Below are positions 12,506 to 18,283 of a DNA stretch of 40,529 nt, piece by piece. Numbering within the stretch: the first letter of the stretch is position 1; every line of letters begins with the position of its first letter. The notes under the pieces are model-generated. The model was not told the DNA's origin and searched no databases. It saw only the letters and a program-made list of their open reading frames with translations. Both the position numbers and the translations under genes were made by a program. The stretch comes from Thermococcus sp. JdFR-02 (GTDB lineage: Archaea > Methanobacteriota_B > Thermococci > Thermococcales > Thermococcaceae), in the NCBI GenBank assembly GCA_002009975.1, contig MTLP01000032.1, forward strand, positions 127,443 through 167,971, in the 5' to 3' direction.

Positions 12506-13195
12506 ATGTTGCTGAAGCTTCCAATAATTGACTGTGTCTTTCTTGAGAGAATTAACCGCTTTGTTGCCTTAATAAAGATCAATGGGAAAGTTAAGAGAGC
12601 CTTAATCACAAATACCGGTCGTTTAGAGAAATTTATGGTTAAAGGGAGAAAGGCTTTTTGCATGCCAAAGCAAGGCGGAAAAACAGAGTTTATTCTAATT
12701 GGATTTGATGAGGGAGAAAAAGGAGCCATAATAGACACGAGAACCCAAGCAAAAGCCTTTGAAAAAGCCGTTGAGATGGGTTTGATCACTTGGCTTAAAA
12801 ACTGCAAAATAAAGCATAAAGAGGTTAAAATTGGAAGTTCTCGCTTGGATTATTTGTTGGAATGTAATGGGGAAGAGATTTGGGTTGAAATGAAAAGTGC
12901 GGTATTGCGTGAAGGGGAATATGCAATGTACCCAGATTGCCCAAGTATTAGAGGACAAAAGCACATAAAGGAGTTGATTACCCTAAAGGAACAGGGAAAG
13001 AAAGCAATGATTCTATTTATATGTGCATTGCCAAATGTGAAAAAGTTTAAACCCTACGAAAAGGGAGATCCAGAAATTGCAAAGCTTTTAAGATTAGCAA
13101 AGAAGAAGGGTGTTGAAATTAGGGCAATTGGAATTAGTCTTTTGCCAAGTGGAGAGGTTGTTTTAGAGAATGAAAACTTAGAAGTTGAGGTTTAG
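12506..13195 (+). CDS. sfsA: DNA/RNA nuclease SfsA
   Basis: FLERINRF, NTGRL, SRLDYLL, WVEMKS, YPDCPSIRGQKH. Confidence 0.93.
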   Translation: MLLKLPIIDCVFLERINRFVALIKINGKVKRALITNTGRLEKFMVKGRKAFCMPKQGGKTEFILIGFDEGEKGAIIDTRTQAKAFEKAVEMGLITWLKNCKIKHKEVKIGSSRLDYLLECNGEEIWVEMKSAVLREGEYAMYPDCPSIRGQKHIKELITLKEQGKKAMILFICALPNVKKFKPYEKGDPEIAKLLRLAKKKGVEIRAIGISLLPSGEVVLENENLEVEV

Positions 13196-14078
13196 AGAGA
13201 TGGTTATTGTTAAAGGCATTGGCTTGGACAGCTCTTCAAAAATTGCCTTTCAAAGTCACGCTCATACTGACCATTTTGTTAGCGGAAGACTTATTATAGC
13301 TACAAAAGCAACGAAATATTTAAGCCACTTAAGAAAAGGTGGCTTCTACAAGGTTTATCCTTTCAATAAGAGCTTTTATATTGGTGATTACAAAGCTAAG
13401 CTATTACCTGCAGGACATATGTTAGGTTCTGCACAAATTTATATTGAGTTTGACGAATTCTCACTCTTATATACAGGGGATGTAAAATGGTTTAAGCTTA
13501 GAACCGCAGAGAAAAGTTGTTTTAGAAAAGCAGATGTCCTGATGATTGAAGCAACATACGGTGTACCAATGTTCAATTTTCCAACTCCAAGAGAAGCTGA
13601 GAAAAAGTTAATTGCCTTTGTTGAGGAAGCCTTAGACAGGGAAAAGACACCAACACTCTATGCAAATCAAGTTGGAAAGGCTCAAGAGCTTTTAAAAATT
13701 CTCGATATTCATGGTTATTCTGTCAAGGCTTCAAGACAAATAGTGAAGTTTGCAAAGGTTTACGAAAAGTTCTGGATAAAATTTAACAATATCTCAAAAG
13801 ATGGGGAGGTTACTTTGAGAGGTGTGAAAACTCAAAAACCTGAGAATTCTCTTTCTCCTTCCGAGCTTTATGTCTCTGGCTTTGGTCAATTAAAGTTAAG
13901 CAACCATGCAGATTTCTGGGAATTGATGAGAATCATTGAAAAAGTTAAGCCCAAAAAAATATACACTCTCTATGGCTACGCTGAAGAATTTGCGAGGTTA
14001 TTAAGGGGATTGGGATACAATGCAGAATCTTTACGTAATGATGCGTTACCACTAAATATTTATCCCTTTAAAGGATAA
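13185..14078 (+). CDS. MBL-fold/beta-CASP-like nuclease
   Basis: SHAHTDH, AGHMLGS, YTGD, EATYG and SNHAD motifs. The start may be ATG 13200. Confidence 0.85.
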   Translation: MRFREMVIVKGIGLDSSSKIAFQSHAHTDHFVSGRLIIATKATKYLSHLRKGGFYKVYPFNKSFYIGDYKAKLLPAGHMLGSAQIYIEFDEFSLLYTGDVKWFKLRTAEKSCFRKADVLMIEATYGVPMFNFPTPREAEKKLIAFVEEALDREKTPTLYANQVGKAQELLKILDIHGYSVKASRQIVKFAKVYEKFWIKFNNISKDGEVTLRGVKTQKPENSLSPSELYVSGFGQLKLSNHADFWELMRIIEKVKPKKIYTLYGYAEEFARLLRGLGYNAESLRNDALPLNIYPFKG

Positions 14079-14197
14079 TTAAGTTTATGAAACGTAATTT
14101 GTTAAAGGGCTATAATGCAAGAAAAAACAGGTACCTTCTCCTTATGATTATTAGGAATAAGCGTAGAGTAATTAGGAAAAGGGAACTAGTATTTGAG

Positions 14198-14503
14198 ATG
14201 AAGCTTCAAAAGATGCTTGATATTATAGATGCTGTAGAAAACTGGGTTGAAGTTGCAGATATCGATAATTCACTTAAATTAATGTTTCTACATTTTCTTC
14301 GAAGCTTTACCAGTAAAATTTCAACTTTTACATACAGAGATACTGCAAAAAATCTTTTTTATTTTGAGTTGAAAGATTTAGAACGCAAATTAGACTCCTT
14401 GGCAGATAAGATATCTCAAAAAAGTCCCTTCTTTAAAACCCTGTATTTTAGGCTTAAATTAGCTCTGGATGAGTTTTATAAAGAGTTTGGCATAGAGAGA
14501 TAG
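14198..14503 (+). CDS. Small helical hypothetical protein upstream of kaiC
   Basis: ORF open from 14087; probable start MKLQK at 14198. Weak similarity to the product of 15902-16201. Confidence 0.6.
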   Translation: MKLQKMLDIIDAVENWVEVADIDNSLKLMFLHFLRSFTSKISTFTYRDTAKNLFYFELKDLERKLDSLADKISQKSPFFKTLYFRLKLALDEFYKEFGIER

Positions 14504-14550
14504 GTATTCTTAAATAGTAATATTGACCAAGATACAGTTGGTGAGAATTC

Positions 14551-15909
14551 GTGAAAAGCGGAATCAAATTCTTTGATGAAAATATCGTAAAAGATGGGTT
14601 TCCAGAAGGATCACTAATTCTGATTGCTGGAGAACCAGGGGCAGGAAAAACAATTTTTGCTTCTACATTTGTTTATAACGGAATGGCAAAATTCGGAGAG
14701 AAAGGGATTTACGTTTCACTTGCAGAGACAAAAGAAGACTACTATGAAGAAATGAAAAAGCTTGGGATGGATTTTGAAAAGTTTGAAAAAGAAGGCCTCT
14801 TCAAATTTATTGATCTCGTTACTGTAACCTCTGAAACTATTGAAAAAGAGATTGAGCTTATAATGAAGGAGATTATAACTTTCCAACCAAAGAGAATAGT
14901 TATTGATCCTATAAGTGCTTTTGCACAACTTTTGGGTGCTGAAAAAACGAGAATCTTTCTTCATACAACCTTAGGACGTTTTATTAAAGCTTATAACACT
15001 GTCACCTTTTTAATTGCTGAAAAACCGCTTGGGAGAGAAGTTATTGGATATGGCGTTGAAGAATTCATTGTTGATGGCGTGATTATACTTAAATATATCA
15101 AAATGGGAGAAATAACCAGAAGGGTCATGGAAATTCCAAAAATGAGGAAAAGAGATATTGAGAGAGCTCAATACGAATATGCAATAACAAATGAAGGTAT
15201 TGAATTCTTAGCTGTTCCAGAGCTTATTAGGGGAGAGAAAGAAGCATCCATGGAAAAAGTAACCACAGGAATCAAAAAATTAGATGAGCTTTTGGAGGGT
15301 GGTGTTTATAAAGGCTCCATAACTCTTTTTGTTGGAATGACGGGTACGGGAAAAACCACCTTTGGTTTGCATTTTGTAATAGCAAATGCTCTCCAAGGGC
15401 GAAAAGCAGCTTATGTATCATTTGAAGAGCCAATAGGGCAGGTAATAAGGACAGCAAAAAACTATGGGATGCCAATTGATGAGCTTTTAAAACAAAACTT
15501 AAAGATGTTTAGCTGGGTTCCAGAGGCAAGAACACCAGTTTACACCTTCCTAAAACTTAGAAGGATAATAGAAGAATTTGAACCAGAAATTCTCGTCATT
15601 GAAAGTTTAACTGCTTTAAGAGAACATATGGACGAAAAAGAACTGATAAAGATGATTCGCTATCTTAATTTGCTTGTAAAAGAGCACGACATAGCCGTTT
15701 ACATAACTCTAAATGCAGAGACAGACTTTGAAACAGTTCCATTTACAAAAGCAAGCACATTGTCAGACAATATAATCGGCTTAAAATACGTGATTAAAGG
15801 AGATTCTATAGAACGCAGACTTGCAATAATTAAGTCAAGAGGTTCAAATCACTCAAGGAAGATTTACAAATACGAGATTACCGATAAGGGGGTGGTAATT
15901 TATGAATGA
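14551..15909 (+). CDS. kaiC: Double-domain KaiC-like ATPase (KaiC/RAD55 family)
   Basis: Two Walker A motifs (GEPGAGKT, GMTGTGKT); CI GVEEFIVDGVIIL and KMR; CII SFEE, ASTLSDNII and KSRGSNH. Confidence 0.9.
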   Translation: MKSGIKFFDENIVKDGFPEGSLILIAGEPGAGKTIFASTFVYNGMAKFGEKGIYVSLAETKEDYYEEMKKLGMDFEKFEKEGLFKFIDLVTVTSETIEKEIELIMKEIITFQPKRIVIDPISAFAQLLGAEKTRIFLHTTLGRFIKAYNTVTFLIAEKPLGREVIGYGVEEFIVDGVIILKYIKMGEITRRVMEIPKMRKRDIERAQYEYAITNEGIEFLAVPELIRGEKEASMEKVTTGIKKLDELLEGGVYKGSITLFVGMTGTGKTTFGLHFVIANALQGRKAAYVSFEEPIGQVIRTAKNYGMPIDELLKQNLKMFSWVPEARTPVYTFLKLRRIIEEFEPEILVIESLTALREHMDEKELIKMIRYLNLLVKEHDIAVYITLNAETDFETVPFTKASTLSDNIIGLKYVIKGDSIERRLAIIKSRGSNHSRKIYKYEITDKGVVIYE

Positions 15910-16201
15910 AGCTCAAAACGTTGTCATTAAAGCCGTCATTTATGCAATAGAAAAAGCCGACCCTACACTCAAAAATCTTTTGGAGTTTCATTTAAAGAGC
16001 ACAACAGGGAAAGGATTTGAATTAGCTTATGAAAATCCAGAAGAATTTAAGAGAAGTGTTTCTAAGCTCTTTGGAGAGTACAGTGGAAGGTTATTGGAGA
16101 TGCTCATTATAGGTTACTTCAAAGAAAATGTTGGACTTAAGGGAGATGTAAACAACTTAGAAGAGCTTGTTGTTTACCTCAAAAAGATATATGGTGAGTA
16201 A
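15902..16201 (+). CDS. Small KaiC-associated helical protein (resembles NitrOD5/DUF3227-like output domains)
   Basis: Overlaps the kaiC stop; pattern LEFHLKS..GKGFELAYENPEEFKRSVSKLFGEYSGRLLE. Confidence 0.65.
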   Translation: MNEAQNVVIKAVIYAIEKADPTLKNLLEFHLKSTTGKGFELAYENPEEFKRSVSKLFGEYSGRLLEMLIIGYFKENVGLKGDVNNLEELVVYLKKIYGE

Positions 16202-16901
16202 AGTGCAGTCCAATCCATTAGACATTGTAGCAGCATCTTCTAAGAGGATAACCCCAACTCTTATTCAGTATGAAGTCGGAAGCGAGGTTGAAATTATAAT
16301 TTTTAACCTACTCTCAGAACTCAAGAAATCCTATGAAAAGATAATAATAGTTTCATTCTACGATGCATATGCAACACTTTTGAGATATCTGAACAGTGTC
16401 TTCAATCCCCAAAATGTTCAGGAGGTTTTTGATGATGTTTATTTGGTCTCAATAAGCCCTCTTCTTGAAGTGAATTTAAAGCCCAATGATGTGATAAAAG
16501 CCGACCAGCATGAAATAATCTCTGGAAGACTTTTTGAGATTACAGGATTAATAGAAGAAAAATCCTTAATCCTGATCTTAGGTCCCGACTTTTTTGGCAT
16601 CAAGATTGGAAAGGATTCATTAATAGAACTCGTACCATCCCTAATGACCACTTTAAGCAGAAAGAAGGACCTCAACATAATAATAACGCTAAATATCAAA
16701 ATTTTTCCAGAGAACATAATTGAGATAATAAACAGTTTTGCATTTAACGTTATCAAACTAGGAGTTGAGGTGAGTAATTCCAAAATTAAACGCCAAATGA
16801 CCATTTTAAGGAGTGTTTTTCTCGAATACAATCTTAAAAGATGGTACTATAAACTTTTAGGCAAAACTTTAATTTTTACCCCCGCTTTTTCAGAGGACTA
16901 A
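16191..16901 (+). CDS. Degenerate KaiC/RecA-fold protein (DUF257-like) lacking Walker A
   Basis: TLIQY, IIIVSFYDAY, LILILGPD, FAFNVIKL and QMTILRS follow the RecA-core strand order with no P-loop. Probable start ATG 16191. Confidence 0.6.
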   Translation: MVSKVQSNPLDIVAASSKRITPTLIQYEVGSEVEIIIFNLLSELKKSYEKIIIVSFYDAYATLLRYLNSVFNPQNVQEVFDDVYLVSISPLLEVNLKPNDVIKADQHEIISGRLFEITGLIEEKSLILILGPDFFGIKIGKDSLIELVPSLMTTLSRKKDLNIIITLNIKIFPENIIEIINSFAFNVIKLGVEVSNSKIKRQMTILRSVFLEYNLKRWYYKLLGKTLIFTPAFSED

Positions 16902-16944
16902 TTTTTTAAGCACTCTTCTTTTTTACCTATATAACCAACTAGGG

Positions 16945-17925
16945 GTGATGTTCATGGAGGTTAATCTAAATGAGCAGAAGGTTGTTAAAGACATTAAAAT
17001 TGAGAAAGGAATGAATGTTAATCAGATTACAAAGCAACTTTATGAAAGCGGGGGCTTTGTTGCAAAGAAATTTGGCTTAGCTGTAGAGATTCTCGAGAGA
17101 ATGGTAAAAGATGAAAACACGTTTAGATTTTTGAGCTTTCCAGCTTGTATAATGGCAACAGGAACGAGAGGAATTATAGTTGAACTCATTAAGAAGAGAC
17201 TCTTTAATGCTGTAATAACGACATGTGGAACCTTAGATCACGACTTAGCTCGCTTATGGAAGCCCTATTATCATGGCTCATTCTTAATGGATGATAGAGA
17301 ACTTCACAAGCAGGGAATTAATCGTTTAGGAAACGTATTAGTTCCAAACGACAGCTATTGGGTAGTTGAGGAAAAACTTCAAAATATACTCCAAGAAATC
17401 TATGATGAAGGAAAGAGAAGGTTAGCTACTTACGAGTTAATTTGGGAAATAGGAAGGCGATTGGAAAATGAAAAAGGAAAGGAGAACAGCTTGATATATT
17501 GGGCTTATAAGAACAGGATTCCAGTTTTCGTGCCGGGAATTACAGATGGTGCAGTTGGATATCAAATTTGGCTCTTTGCTCAAGATAAGAGTGATTTCAT
17601 CATTGATGTTTTTAAAGATGAGAGCAAGTTGGACGAGATAATGGCAACTCTTGATAGGGAAAACAAAAAAAGCGGCGCTTTGATGATAGGTGGTGGAATA
17701 AGCAAGCATCATACAATTTGGTGGAACCAGTTCTACAAAGAAGGCTTGGATTACGCTGTTTACATAACAACAGCCGTTGAATGGGATGGCTCATTAAGCG
17801 GAGCAAGAATAAGGGAAGCTGTATCTTGGGGTAAAGTTAAGGAAGACGCAAGATACGTTACTGTTGAAGGAGATGCAACACTCTTATTACCATTCATGAT
17901 CGCCGCCCTTTTGGAAAGGCTCTAA
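16945..17925 (+). CDS. dys: Deoxyhypusine synthase
   Basis: GGFVA, ITTCGTLDHD, GINRLGNV, ITDGAVG, IGGGISKHH, DGSLSGA and EAVSWGK (catalytic Lys). Confidence 0.95.
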   Translation: MMFMEVNLNEQKVVKDIKIEKGMNVNQITKQLYESGGFVAKKFGLAVEILERMVKDENTFRFLSFPACIMATGTRGIIVELIKKRLFNAVITTCGTLDHDLARLWKPYYHGSFLMDDRELHKQGINRLGNVLVPNDSYWVVEEKLQNILQEIYDEGKRRLATYELIWEIGRRLENEKGKENSLIYWAYKNRIPVFVPGITDGAVGYQIWLFAQDKSDFIIDVFKDESKLDEIMATLDRENKKSGALMIGGGISKHHTIWWNQFYKEGLDYAVYITTAVEWDGSLSGARIREAVSWGKVKEDARYVTVEGDATLLLPFMIAALLERL

Positions 17926-17958
17926 TGCAAAAGAGGAGAAGGAGTTATCTCTTTTAAT

Positions 17959-18126
17959 GGGGCTAATGCCCCCATATTCCCCACAAATTTTTGGGACATA
18001 AAAAGGGCTTGCTTTAAAATGAAAAGTTGAAAATAACACATAGAATGGATTTAAAACGGAACACAAATTAAGCAAACTAATTCTAAAAAACTAACTTTGA
18101 TCAAACTTTTACTTAGCAAAAGTTTG
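17959..18126. repeat. Hairpin-bounded intergenic element (REP/MITE-like remnant candidate)
   Basis: Hairpin GGGGC-TAAT-GCCCC at 17959-17972 and 9-bp inverted repeat CAAACTTTT-N7-AAAAGTTTG at 18102-18126. Confidence 0.4.
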
Positions 18127-18191
18127 TTAAGAAGGGGGTAATAACCCGCCCAAGTTCATTGAATCCTCCTTCGGAGGTACTCCCCGGGCAT
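18127..18191 (-). ncRNA. Candidate structured small RNA or micro-ORF leader
   Basis: GC-rich island. The minus strand folds GCCCGGG/CUUGGGC (two G-U pairs) around CCUCC-GAA-GGAGG; BRE/TATA-like CGAAATGCTTTTTAG upstream. Confidence 0.45.
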
Positions 18192-18283
18192 TTTATAATT
18201 ATGTGTCATTACTAAAAAGCATTTCGCTTCAACTTGCCTTGAAGTTTTAGGAATTCTTAAATCCAATGAGAAAAATATAACAA

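What the first reader, a model, noticed from the sequence alone, without database searches (positions are those of the whole stretch)
14198..16901. Four-gene KaiC signalling module without KaiA or KaiB
Seen: four co-oriented, partly overlapping genes, namely a small helical protein, a full CI-CII KaiC, a 99-aa helical protein and a P-loop-less RecA/KaiC-fold (DUF257-like) protein. They sit between housekeeping genes (MBL nuclease and dys). Known: archaeal KaiC-like ATPases and inactivated KaiC-fold domains have been proposed as signalling hubs, but few are characterised. Inference: a self-contained phospho-switch or timer in which the dead KaiC-fold subunit and the small proteins stand in for KaiA/KaiB as regulators or outputs, in a non-phototrophic hyperthermophile.
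Basis: partly seen in the sequence, partly recalled or inferred. Interest (0 to 1): 0.8.

Follow-up and report, generated by a model that had tools for sequence, protein, structure and literature searches.

The report
Conserved three-gene KaiC operon, Thermococcaceae
A two-domain KaiC kinase is always followed by a small helical adaptor and a catalytically dead KaiC-like protein, forming a conserved three-gene unit in Thermococcus/Pyrococcus relatives that matches a published, still untested idea of KaiC-based signalling in archaea.

Summary
The four genes exist as described, with two corrections. The first gene most likely starts at 14087 (138 aa), not 14198. The last gene has a KaiC fold and no P-loop, but it is not a Pfam DUF257 member.

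The conserved unit has three genes, not four:
- kaiC, 14551-15909
- a 99-aa NitrOD5 protein (PF11537; its Pyrococcus horikoshii orthologue is PDB 2P9X), 15902-16201
- a dead KaiC-fold protein, 16191-16901

In 81 genomes of the family, all 26 with this kaiC type carry both partners directly downstream. A second two-domain kaiC type (15 loci) keeps NitrOD5 but lacks the dead subunit. Distant uncultured archaea keep the triad amid unrelated flanking genes.

The upstream helical gene occurs in only 7 of 81 genomes (two genera). It lies behind a conserved TATA-like box that precedes kaiC, and it carries two frameshifting insertions in a ~97% identical strain.

No KaiB is found, and KaiA gives only a sub-threshold match. 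The orthologous KaiC (PH0833) autophosphorylates at 75 °C in print. A DEATH-like helical partner standing in for KaiB was proposed in 2016-2017. I therefore file this as a new member of a known, uncharacterised kind. Binding and any timer behaviour remain untested.

The parts
14087..14503 (+). orf1: 138-aa protein with a basic N-terminal helix and a four-helix bundle. It is a lineage-specific neighbour, not part of the conserved core.
   Evidence: ORF. No Pfam, NCBIfam or PADLOC family. The N-terminus is conserved in 6 of 6 orthologues. The model has pLDDT 79.5 and is all-helical. Only generic helical-bundle fold matches were found. Present in 7 of 81 family genomes. Three indels fall in it in a ~97% identical strain.
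14510..14517 (+). TATA-like element TTAAATAG, 34-41 nt upstream of the kaiC start. It is the candidate promoter of the triad, followed by GGTGAG at 14540-14545.
   Evidence: Sequence. The core TTAAATA is invariant in 7 of 7 aligned loci. It keeps its distance to kaiC in L028 despite a ~210-bp insertion upstream. The archaeal TATA consensus is recalled, not tested, and no transcription start site was mapped.
14551..15909 (+). kaiC: 452-aa two-domain (CI-CII) KaiC-family ATPase and autokinase.
   Evidence: PF06745 twice, E 3e-101. Aligns to solved KaiC residues 23-478 at E ~1e-56 to 1e-64. S-T aligns with S431/T432, the CII EE is kept, CI has AE instead of EE, and there is no C-terminal tail. 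Two Walker A motifs in 16 of 16 orthologues; invariant residues. The orthologue PH0833 autophosphorylates at 75 °C (PMC5520375).
15902..16201 (+). NitrOD5 (PF11537): 99-aa helical adaptor or output protein, with a start that overlaps the kaiC stop by 8 nt.
   Evidence: PF11537, 112.8 bits. PDB 2P9X (PH0832), E 9e-26. 41 of 43 family matches lie directly downstream of a two-domain kaiC, and the other 2 lie beside decayed kaiC loci. The overlap with the kaiC stop is kept in all loci examined.
16191..16901 (+). orf4: 236-aa KaiC-fold protein without a P-loop (a pseudo-ATPase). It is the third gene of the triad and belongs to a small family without a Pfam or NCBIfam model.
   Evidence: Foldseek matches KaiC, FlaH and PH0186 at E ~3e-9. 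hhalign to KaiC CII gives probability 62%, E 7e-5. The Walker A position reads YE[IV]GS[ED][IV]E, and 0 of 16 orthologues have a Walker A. Only 16 representatives at E <= 0.001 among 1.84 billion proteins. Adjacent to kaiC in 26 of 26 genomes.

Best explanation
The region holds a conserved, self-contained three-gene operon, kaiC-nitrOD5-ikaiC. It is orthologous to the locus around PH0833 and PH0832 of Pyrococcus horikoshii.

Shown:
- KaiC is an intact double-domain KaiC-family ATPase. It keeps both P-loops, the CII catalytic Glu pair and the Ser-Thr pair that is phosphorylated in cyanobacterial KaiC.
- It lacks the C-terminal KaiA-binding tail.
- The genome has no KaiB and no KaiA above threshold.

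Shown for the orthologue, in print: autophosphorylation at 75 °C, independent of KaiA.

Inferred:
- The KaiC hexamer acts as an ATP-driven phospho-switch.
- Its state is read or set by two proteins made in fixed proportion from overlapping reading frames.
- The first is the 99-aa NitrOD5 helical adaptor. The same domain serves elsewhere as the output domain fused to response-regulator receiver domains.
- The second is a catalytically dead KaiC-fold protein that keeps the fold, the Walker-B-like Asp and some interface residues, but cannot bind ATP in the usual way.
- Together they most likely form a KaiC-centred complex that passes the signal to unknown targets by protein-protein contact.

The upstream 138-aa helical gene is a lineage-specific neighbour with its own promoter-like element, not a core subunit. 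Nothing here shows oscillation or timekeeping.
For: Gene identities.

Linkage in 81 family genomes:
- 26 genomes have this kaiC type (59-77% identity). All 26 have NitrOD5 and orf4 directly downstream on the same strand.
- 15 loci of a second two-domain kaiC type (40-43% identity) all have NitrOD5 downstream and no orf4.
- 41 of 43 above-cut-off NitrOD5 matches lie next to a two-domain kaiC. The other 2 lie beside kaiC remnants.
- The triad is kept in three distant 'uncultured archaeon' loci, L033-L035 (KaiC 45-55%, orf4 32-38% identity), with unrelated housekeeping flanks.

Operon structure:
- The kaiC stop and NitrOD5 start overlap in every locus examined.
- A TATA-like box is invariant in 7 of 7 loci upstream of kaiC.
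- RNA-library contigs X7 15803-16505 and X8 15513-16393 bridge kaiC, NitrOD5 and orf4.

Biochemistry and literature:
- PH0833 autophosphorylates at 30 and 75 °C without KaiA (PMC5520375, passages read).
- NitrOD5 also occurs as REC-NitrOD5, and Galperin 2018 counts it among archaeal Death-like domains (PMC5847659, passages read).
- A DEATH-like partner was proposed as a KaiB substitute in PMC4858521 (passages read).

orf1 is outside the core: 7 of 81 genomes, and its indels in a near-identical strain.
Against: - No binding, phosphotransfer or output has been shown for any partner.
- The module is dispensable and often decays. It is absent from 55 of 81 family genomes at the thresholds used.
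- Among the 26 carriers, kaiC is interrupted, frameshifted or stopped in 3 (G005, G016, G062) and orf4 is split in 1 (G017). orf4-only remnants occur in 3 further genomes, and one locus has lost kaiC.
- KaiC scores below the curated 'circadian KaiC' equivalog cut-offs (285 vs 408 bits and 203 vs 546 bits).
- Its CI domain has only one of the two Glu residues.
- RNA contigs cannot prove a single transcript, and an RNA library may hold DNA.
- The homology of orf4 to KaiC rests on a fold match with a pLDDT-71 model and a 62%-probability profile alignment.
- I could not read the 2017 KaiC-hub paper. What it says about this exact locus is therefore unknown to me.
Confidence: 0.6

Rival explanations
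1. One reading: all four genes, including the upstream small helical protein, form one module. In it the two small proteins and the dead subunit replace KaiA and KaiB.
For: orf1 lies directly upstream of kaiC on the same strand in all 7 genomes that have it. It is a conserved intact ORF in 6 of 6 aligned orthologues, with 78% mean column identity.
Against: - orf1 is found in only 7 of the 26 genomes with this kaiC type, and only in two genera.
- It is missing from the triads of the other three genera that carry this kaiC type and from the distant MAG loci.
- A conserved TATA-like element lies between it and kaiC. In L028 about 210 bp are inserted between them.
- In a ~97% identical strain, the only indels between 12917 and 17048 are a 3-nt deletion and two 1-nt insertions inside orf1.
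Confidence: 0.12
2. The triad is a true timekeeper (an hourglass or damped oscillator) rather than a plain switch. NitrOD5 and/or the dead subunit would provide the delayed feedback that KaiB gives in cyanobacteria and Rhodobacter.
For: KaiC is full-length CI-CII, with the Ser-Thr phosphosites and CII catalytic residues kept. The orthologue has autokinase activity. Published speculation mentions KaiC-only or KaiB-substituted timing systems in archaea (PMC5520375 and PMC4858521).
Against: - No evidence of rhythmic behaviour exists for this module.
- DNA of this or a near-identical organism was found in subsurface, marine-sediment and vent metagenome runs (mostly small shares). A daily cue is not obvious in such habitats.
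- CI, which sets the slow pace in cyanobacterial KaiC (recalled), has lost one of the two Glu residues.
- The module is patchy and often decayed.
Confidence: 0.1
3. This is not signalling. It would be a RecA-superfamily machine with another job, such as assembly or chaperoning of a structure (as ArlH or GvpD do) or DNA/RNA transactions. The dead subunit would be a structural ring partner and NitrOD5 a substrate adaptor.
For: KaiC-family proteins include ArlH/FlaH and GvpD; weak family matches appear, and orf4 has faint ArlH/FlaH matches (E 0.017-0.05). In this lineage the neighbours are nuclease-like genes (sfsA, MBL-fold exonuclease-like).
Against: The flanking genes differ between genera and in the distant MAGs. 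No archaellum, pilus, gas-vesicle or repair gene travels with the triad. The closest relatives of KaiC by sequence are bona fide KaiC proteins, not RadA/RadB or ArlH.
Confidence: 0.13
4. It is an accessory conflict or defence cassette carried between genomes.
For: The distribution is patchy (26 of 81 genomes), the genomic contexts vary, and the module often decays.
Against: PADLOC gives only generic P-loop matches for KaiC and nothing for the other three proteins. The flanks are housekeeping genes, not islands. No nuclease, toxin or other effector domain lies within the triad.
Confidence: 0.05

Closest known systems
Pyrococcus horikoshii PH0833 (KaiC3 homologue) with PH0832 (PDB 2P9X) and the gene downstream of them
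   Same: It has the same three genes in the same order (locus L023). KaiC is 68% identical, NitrOD5 48% and orf4 44-45%. The NitrOD5 of L023 reads letter for letter as the 2P9X chain. PH0833 was shown to autophosphorylate at 75 °C.
   Different: The window's copy sits between an MBL-fold gene plus orf1 and dys. In L023 the flanks differ and orf1 is absent. No function is published for PH0832 or for the third gene in the papers I could search (6 papers held a term; the one relevant paper, PMC5847659, held only PF11537).
Archaeal KaiC-like ATPase signalling hubs with DEATH-like adaptors and inactivated KaiC domains (Makarova, Galperin and Koonin 2017, not held here; Makarova et al. 2016 PMC4858521; Galperin et al. 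2018 PMC5847659)
   Same: It shares a KaiC-family ATPase, a small alpha-helical protein of the family those authors call Death-like (NitrOD5), and a KaiC homologue with a dead ATPase site. It also shares the proposal that the helical protein may replace KaiB.
   Different: The 2016 passage concerns the arCOG01174/arCOG03758 pair beside type IV pilus genes. Here the ATPase is a full two-domain KaiC and no pilus genes are nearby. Whether the 2017 paper lists this exact triad I could not check (supplements closed).
Cyanobacterial KaiABC and proteobacterial KaiBC (Rhodobacter) clocks
   Same: It has the double-domain KaiC fold, Walker motifs, the CII EE pair and the S431/T432-equivalent S-T pair. 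These KaiC proteins are the best structural relatives of both KaiC and orf4.
   Different: There is no KaiB and no KaiA. There is no C-terminal A-loop or tail and no coiled-coil extension, since the protein ends at the residue aligned to KaiC 478. CI has AE instead of EE. It scores below the circadian-KaiC equivalog cut-offs. The partners are unrelated in fold to KaiA and KaiB.
DUF257 (PF03192), the family of KaiC-like proteins expanded in this genome
   Same: Members are single-domain proteins of about 220-250 aa found in the same genomes.
   Different: orf4 has no PF03192 match at E <= 0.1, while 15 other places in the genome match. orf4 belongs to a much smaller family of its own (16 representatives).

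Membership tests
KaiC family (Pfam PF06745), double-domain form | Two tandem RecA-like KaiC domains, each above the Pfam cut-off | tested here: met
   PF06745 at 337.9 bits (cut-off 26.6) in 2 stretches. The genome scan shows both halves, 214.9 and 136.8 bits.
KaiC family (Pfam PF06745), double-domain form | A Walker A P-loop in both domains | tested here: met
   GEPGAGKT at residue 27 and GMTGTGKT at residue 262. Two motifs are present in 16 of 16 orthologues.
Bona fide circadian KaiC (NCBIfam TIGR02655 / PRK09302 equivalogs) | A score above the curated equivalog cut-off | tested here: not met
   203.3 bits vs 546.25 for TIGR02655, and 284.9 bits vs 408 for PRK09302.
Bona fide circadian KaiC (NCBIfam TIGR02655 / PRK09302 equivalogs) | A phospho-acceptor Ser-Thr pair in CII (S431/T432 of S. 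elongatus) | tested here: met
   S402-T403 align with S431-T432. T403 is invariant and S402 is present in at least 90% of 16 orthologues. Phosphorylation of these residues was not tested.
Bona fide circadian KaiC (NCBIfam TIGR02655 / PRK09302 equivalogs) | A catalytic Glu pair in both CI and CII | tested here: not met
   CII keeps the EE pair (E292, E293). CI reads AE, SE or NE, and only E59 is invariant. The role of each Glu is recalled, not tested.
Bona fide circadian KaiC (NCBIfam TIGR02655 / PRK09302 equivalogs) | A C-terminal A-loop or tail that binds KaiA | tested here: not met
   The 452-aa protein ends where the alignment reaches residue 478 of the 519-aa KaiC. The position of the A-loop is recalled.
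KaiABC / KaiBC oscillator system | KaiB (PF07689) encoded in the genome | tested here: not met
   0 matches at E <= 0.01 in a genome that is 99.99% complete. The control search rings in 5 of 14 control genomes, among them S. elongatus; 1 of the 5 is over the cut-off, and the output does not say which.
KaiABC / KaiBC oscillator system | KaiA (PF07688) encoded in the genome | tested here: not met
   Only one match, at 21.1 bits and below the 22.2-bit cut-off, inside an 880-aa ORF on another contig.
NitrOD5 (Pfam PF11537) | A score above the Pfam gathering cut-off over the whole domain | tested here: met
   112.8 bits vs 27, covering profile positions 3-94 of 94. The solved relative 2P9X matches at E 9e-26.
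Archaeal Death-like adaptor domains (Makarova 2017, as cited by Galperin 2018) | A Death-domain-like helical fold | not tested
   The assignment of NitrOD5 to this family is taken from PMC5847659.
DUF257 (Pfam PF03192), considered for orf4 | A match to the family model | tested here: not met
   No match at E <= 0.1. 15 other places in the same genome match at 35-200 bits.
Inactivated KaiC-fold protein (pseudo-ATPase), for orf4 | A RecA/KaiC fold | tested here: met
   The top Foldseek PDB hits are KaiC, FlaH (4yds) and PH0186 (2zts), at E 2.7e-9 to 1e-8, probability 1.00 and TM 0.58-0.65, from a model with pLDDT 71.4. hhalign to KaiC CII gives probability 62%, E 7.3e-5.
Inactivated KaiC-fold protein (pseudo-ATPase), for orf4 | Loss of the nucleotide-binding P-loop | tested here: met
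   No [AG]xxxxGK[ST] in 0 of 16 orthologues. The loop after strand 1 reads YE[IV]GS[ED][IV]E. Failure to bind ATP was not measured.

The most novel reading that the evidence does not exclude
The dead KaiC-fold protein may be a pseudo-subunit that docks on the KaiC CII ring and is itself phosphorylated in trans.

In the profile alignment, its invariant Ser182 falls on KaiC T403, the T432 equivalent. Its invariant Arg207 falls on KaiC K428, a residue that reaches into the neighbour's ATP site in cyanobacterial KaiC (that role is recalled).

Together with the NitrOD5 adaptor, this would give a three-protein, KaiB-free delayed-feedback device: an energy-charge or temperature hourglass in hyperthermophilic archaea. 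The same adaptor domain is plugged into receiver domains in ammonia-oxidising archaea. That would link two phospho-signalling worlds through one output module.
Probability: 0.08. Interest if true: 0.8.

Novelty: new member of a known kind. Interest (0 to 1): 0.4.

Why it matters
KaiC-like ATPases are among the most expanded regulatory families in archaea. This genome alone has 17 PF06745 matches and 15 DUF257 matches. Yet almost none has a known partner or output.

This triad is a compact and strictly linked case:
- One kinase whose orthologue is already active in vitro at 75 °C.
- One 99-aa partner whose orthologue already has a crystal structure.
- One dead paralogue.

That makes it a practical entry point for testing the 2016-2017 proposal that archaeal KaiC proteins signal through Death-like adaptors and inactivated paralogues.

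The scan adds three things:
- The module has three genes, not four.
- In this family, NitrOD5 is essentially never found away from a two-domain kaiC.
- The third gene defines a very small, unannotated family that also turns up in distant archaeal MAGs. The one source name seen for a member is 'hypothetical protein', from an Asgard-labelled MAG.

Tried and rejected
**Complex prediction.** I sent KaiC + orf4 + NitrOD5, with NitrOD5 as partner and alignments A4, A6 and A5. The verdict was 'no answer'. The score was 0.61, but the control with KaiC replaced scored 0.68. This is neither support for nor evidence against any binding.

**The 2017 KaiC-hub paper.** It is not held under its PMC id or DOI, so I relied on passages of papers that cite or precede it and on recall. 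Supplements are closed. The arCOG tables there may already list this triad.

**orf1.**
- No family in Pfam, NCBIfam or PADLOC.
- Foldseek PDB gave no match at E <= 0.001.
- VIA-align wide gave best Z 11.0 against assorted four-helix bundles, below the ~13 level that the tool says is common for helical bundles.
- The protein atlas gave only leads under 0.9 and chemoreceptor-type four-helix-bundle look-alikes 'under the bar'.
- I therefore name no family for it.

**orf4.**
- A profile search against PDB sequences gave 0 matches at E <= 10.
- The word-based homologue search found only 2 proteins.
- The 255-aa divergent gene upstream of the triad in L018 looked like a further dead KaiC by eye. It has no Pfam hit and no relation to orf4 (hhalign probability 0.07%), so I dropped the idea.

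**Other searches.**
- The search for related loci with the wide alignment A3 failed for lack of a conserved stretch. I repeated it with A1.
- Defence reading: PADLOC gave nothing specific.
- Earlier findings of the scan: nothing to show near this place.

**RNA contigs.** Neither X7 nor X8 has a listed piece covering most of orf1 (about 14164-14516) or the orf1-kaiC junction, and X7 has none over 16520-16720. An X8 contig begins at 14517, but a contig end cannot show a transcript start.


Full report
**What is in the sequence**

Between 14087 and 16901 there are four ORFs on the + strand.

- orf1 (14087-14503, 138 aa) has no Pfam, NCBIfam or PADLOC family.
- The second ORF (14551-15909, 452 aa) is a two-domain KaiC: PF06745 at E 3e-101 in two stretches.
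- The third ORF (15902-16201, 99 aa) matches PF11537 'NitrOD5' at 112.8 bits against a cut-off of 27. It also matches the solved structure 2P9X, 'hypothetical protein PH0832', at E 9e-26 over its whole length.
- The fourth ORF is listed from TTG 16167. The conserved start is ATG 16191, preceded by GGTGA in the orthologues and equal to the 236-aa database protein.

The flanks are sfsA (12506-13195), an MBL-fold exonuclease-like gene (13185-14078) and deoxyhypusine synthase (16945-17925). The 5' limit of 14198 is an internal Met. The 37 basic residues before it are conserved in all 6 orthologues aligned.

**The KaiC**

It aligns end to end with solved KaiC proteins, query 3-450 against residues 23-478 of the 519-aa protein, at E 1e-56 to 8e-64.

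- Both Walker A motifs are present in 16 of 16 orthologues.
- The CII Glu pair is kept.
- The Ser-Thr pair that is phosphorylated in cyanobacteria aligns with S402-T403. T403 is invariant.
- In CI the first Glu of the pair is Ala, Ser or Asn in all 16.
- The protein ends where the KaiA-binding C-terminal part of cyanobacterial KaiC would begin (the position of that part is recalled).
- It scores under the curated cut-offs of the 'circadian KaiC' equivalogs.

The genome is 99.99% complete. It has no KaiB match, and only a sub-threshold KaiA match inside an unrelated 880-aa ORF.

The orthologue has been partly characterised. Schmelling et al. 2017 (PMC5520375; abstract and passages read) cloned 'Pyrococcus horikoshii OT3 PH0833' and the Thermococcus litoralis homologue. 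They found autophosphorylation at 30 °C independent of KaiA, and also at 75 °C. PH0833 is the neighbour of PH0832. The 99-aa protein of my locus L023 reads letter for letter as the 2P9X chain. Its genome handle has only one KaiC match at E <= 1e-60.

**The fourth gene**

A model built from 14 sequences (pLDDT 71.4, pTM 0.77) matches KaiC, FlaH and PH0186 structures at Foldseek E 2.7e-9 to 1e-8, probability 1.00, TM 0.58-0.65 and 9-16% identity. A profile-profile comparison places residues 40-233 on KaiC CII 277-452 (probability 62%, E 7.3e-5).

It is not DUF257. There is no PF03192 match at E <= 0.1, although 15 other places in this genome match that family.

The family is very small. A profile search of 1.84 billion representatives found 16 proteins at E <= 0.001. 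One cluster member comes from a MAG labelled Asgardarchaeia and is named 'hypothetical protein'.

**Which genes belong together**

I scanned 81 genomes of the window's family, which contains P. horikoshii and Thermococcus MAGs.

KaiC matches at E <= 1e-60 fall into two groups:
- 26 genomes have a 59-77% identical copy, which I call group A.
- 15 loci have a 40-43% identical copy, group B, all in one genus. Four of these genomes have both groups.

All 26 group-A genomes have a NitrOD5 match and an orf4 match directly downstream on the same strand. All 15 group-B loci have NitrOD5 downstream and no orf4. Four fetched group-B loci confirm this.

Of the 43 NitrOD5 matches above the cut-off, 41 lie beside a two-domain kaiC. 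The other two lie beside a kaiC remnant (L048) or a locus where kaiC has been replaced (L046).

Of the 28 genomes with a full or near-full orf4, 26 have group-A kaiC beside it. One is cut by a contig end, and one is the locus that lost kaiC.

Across the phylum, NitrOD5 was found in 42 of 96 genomes of this family and in 0 of 36 genomes of the other families searched.

The pattern scan of named genome records returned 9 loci. Several are the same genomes as above, judged by matching contig lengths or coordinates: L027 with L014's contig, L028 with G042's locus, L031 with G051's and L032 with G058's. Three 'uncultured archaeon' loci (L033-L035) carry the triad with KaiC at 45-55% and orf4 at 32-38% identity. 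One locus (L029) is cut by the contig end. Their flanks are ribosomal-protein and other housekeeping genes with nothing in common.

The kaiC stop overlaps the NitrOD5 start in every locus examined. The overlap is 8 nt in the family and 4-17 nt in the distant loci.

**orf1 is not part of the core**

- It was found in 7 of 81 genomes. These are the window's own genus and 6 of 8 genomes of one other genus; the two misses there are 75% and 80% complete. It was found in none of 72 genomes of the other four genera.
- Between orf1 and kaiC lies a TATA-like TTAAATA, invariant in 7 of 7 loci and followed by GGTGAG. In L028 a ~210-bp insertion separates orf1 from this element but not the element from kaiC.
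- In a ~97% identical strain (DNA contig X4 record 7, 12917-17048, 124 substitutions), the only indels listed within that contig are a 3-nt deletion at 14119 and single-A insertions after 14207 and 14417. All three are inside orf1. The first two are also seen in the RNA-library contigs of X7.
- Its fold is a four-helix bundle with a basic N-terminal helix, and nothing specific matched.

**Expression**

Two metatranscriptome libraries from one sample hold contigs 95-99% identical to the window. X7 record 16 (15803-16505) and X8 record 23 (15513-16393) each run from kaiC through NitrOD5 into orf4. This fits co-transcription but does not prove it. Contigs do not show single molecules, and RNA libraries can contain DNA.

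**How it most likely works**

Shown: the gene identities, the strict linkage and overlapping frames, and the absence of KaiB and of KaiA above threshold.

Shown for the orthologue in print: KaiC autokinase activity at high temperature.

Inferred:
- KaiC is a hexameric phospho-switch.
- NitrOD5 and the dead paralogue are made with it in fixed proportion and bind it or each other.
- NitrOD5 carries the state onward. This role is suggested by its use elsewhere as the output domain of receiver-domain proteins (REC-NitrOD5 in Nitrosopumilus; PMC5847659).
- The dead paralogue keeps an Asp at the Walker-B position (LGLD). In the low-confidence profile alignment it also keeps a Ser on KaiC T403 and an Arg on KaiC K428. 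It could therefore act as a ring partner, a decoy or even a substrate.

No evidence bears on oscillation.

**Arguments against weight or essentiality**

The module is missing from 55 of 81 genomes at these thresholds, and it decays:
- kaiC is interrupted by about 0.7 kb in G005, frameshifted in G016 and stopped in G062.
- orf4 is split in G017.
- orf4-only fragments remain in G021, G044 and G060.

**Comparison with what is known**

Galperin et al. [quoted passage not shown] They also use the term iKaiC for inactivated KaiC domains described there.

I could not read the 2017 paper. From recall, it proposes KaiC-like ATPases, inactivated homologues and Death-like adaptors as signalling hubs.

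The window's module is therefore a new member of a known but experimentally uncharacterised kind. I found no paper on the function of PH0832 or PF11537 beyond these. A search for PH0832, DUF3227, 2P9X and PF11537 returned 6 papers, of which only PMC5847659 was relevant.

**Verdict**

- Interest is moderate. The triad is a clean, tractable test case for the archaeal KaiC-hub hypothesis, but it would not surprise a specialist.

Noticed in passing
L043-L045, L047 (group-B loci); window 16945-17925: The second two-domain kaiC type (40-43% identity), paired with NitrOD5, lies convergent to a ~590-620-aa HEAT-repeat protein and a diphthamide-synthesis (PF01866) gene. The window's triad lies next to deoxyhypusine synthase. 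Both neighbours modify translation factors. This may be coincidence, because the flanks differ in other genera.
   Followed up: partly
L020 (G005), L024 (G016), G062:C2:158918-160201, L025 (G017), L046 (G096), L048 (G065), L026 (G021): The module decays often. kaiC is interrupted by about 0.7 kb in G005, frameshifted in G016 and carries an internal TAA in G062. orf4 is split in G017. In G096 kaiC is replaced by a MinD/ParA-like gene, leaving a truncated NitrOD5 and orf4. G065 keeps a kaiC remnant with NitrOD5, and G021 keeps only an orf4 fragment.
   Followed up: partly
G000:C11:21074-22081 (another contig of the same genome): An 880-aa ORF gives a weak KaiA match (21.1 bits, just under the 22.2 cut-off) and a weak KaiC P-loop match (20.7 bits).
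   Followed up: no
whole genome G000: The KaiC-type repertoire is large: 17 PF06745 matches (12 over the cut-off) and 15 DUF257 matches, several in tandem pairs (for example C1:179704-180998, C8:85951-87185, C5:103249-104496).
   Followed up: no
L028:2090-2300: About 210 bp are inserted between the orf1 stop and the TATA-like box of kaiC in one Thermococci MAG. The insert was not examined.
   Followed up: no
window 14040-14086; L013-L017 upstream of orf1: An A/T-rich TATA-like element lies about 25-35 nt upstream of the orf1 start, inside the end of the MBL-fold gene. It reads AAATATTTAT in the window and AAAAATATTTAAGG in the sister genus, where it is conserved.
   Followed up: partly
window 13185-13195 and 12506-14078: sfsA and the MBL-fold gene overlap by 11 nt. 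The MBL-fold gene matches 'ligase-associated DNA damage response exonuclease' at E 2e-35, below that model's cut-off.
   Followed up: no
L034:448-1818: In one distant MAG the gene upstream of the triad is a 456-aa protein whose N-terminus looks by eye like a HAMP-type signalling protein. This was not tested.
   Followed up: no
window 17933-18199: The related strain in runs X4, X7 and X8 shows several small indels and a 49-nt skip (18048-18098) in the spacer after dys. This spacer is a variable intergenic stretch.
   Followed up: no
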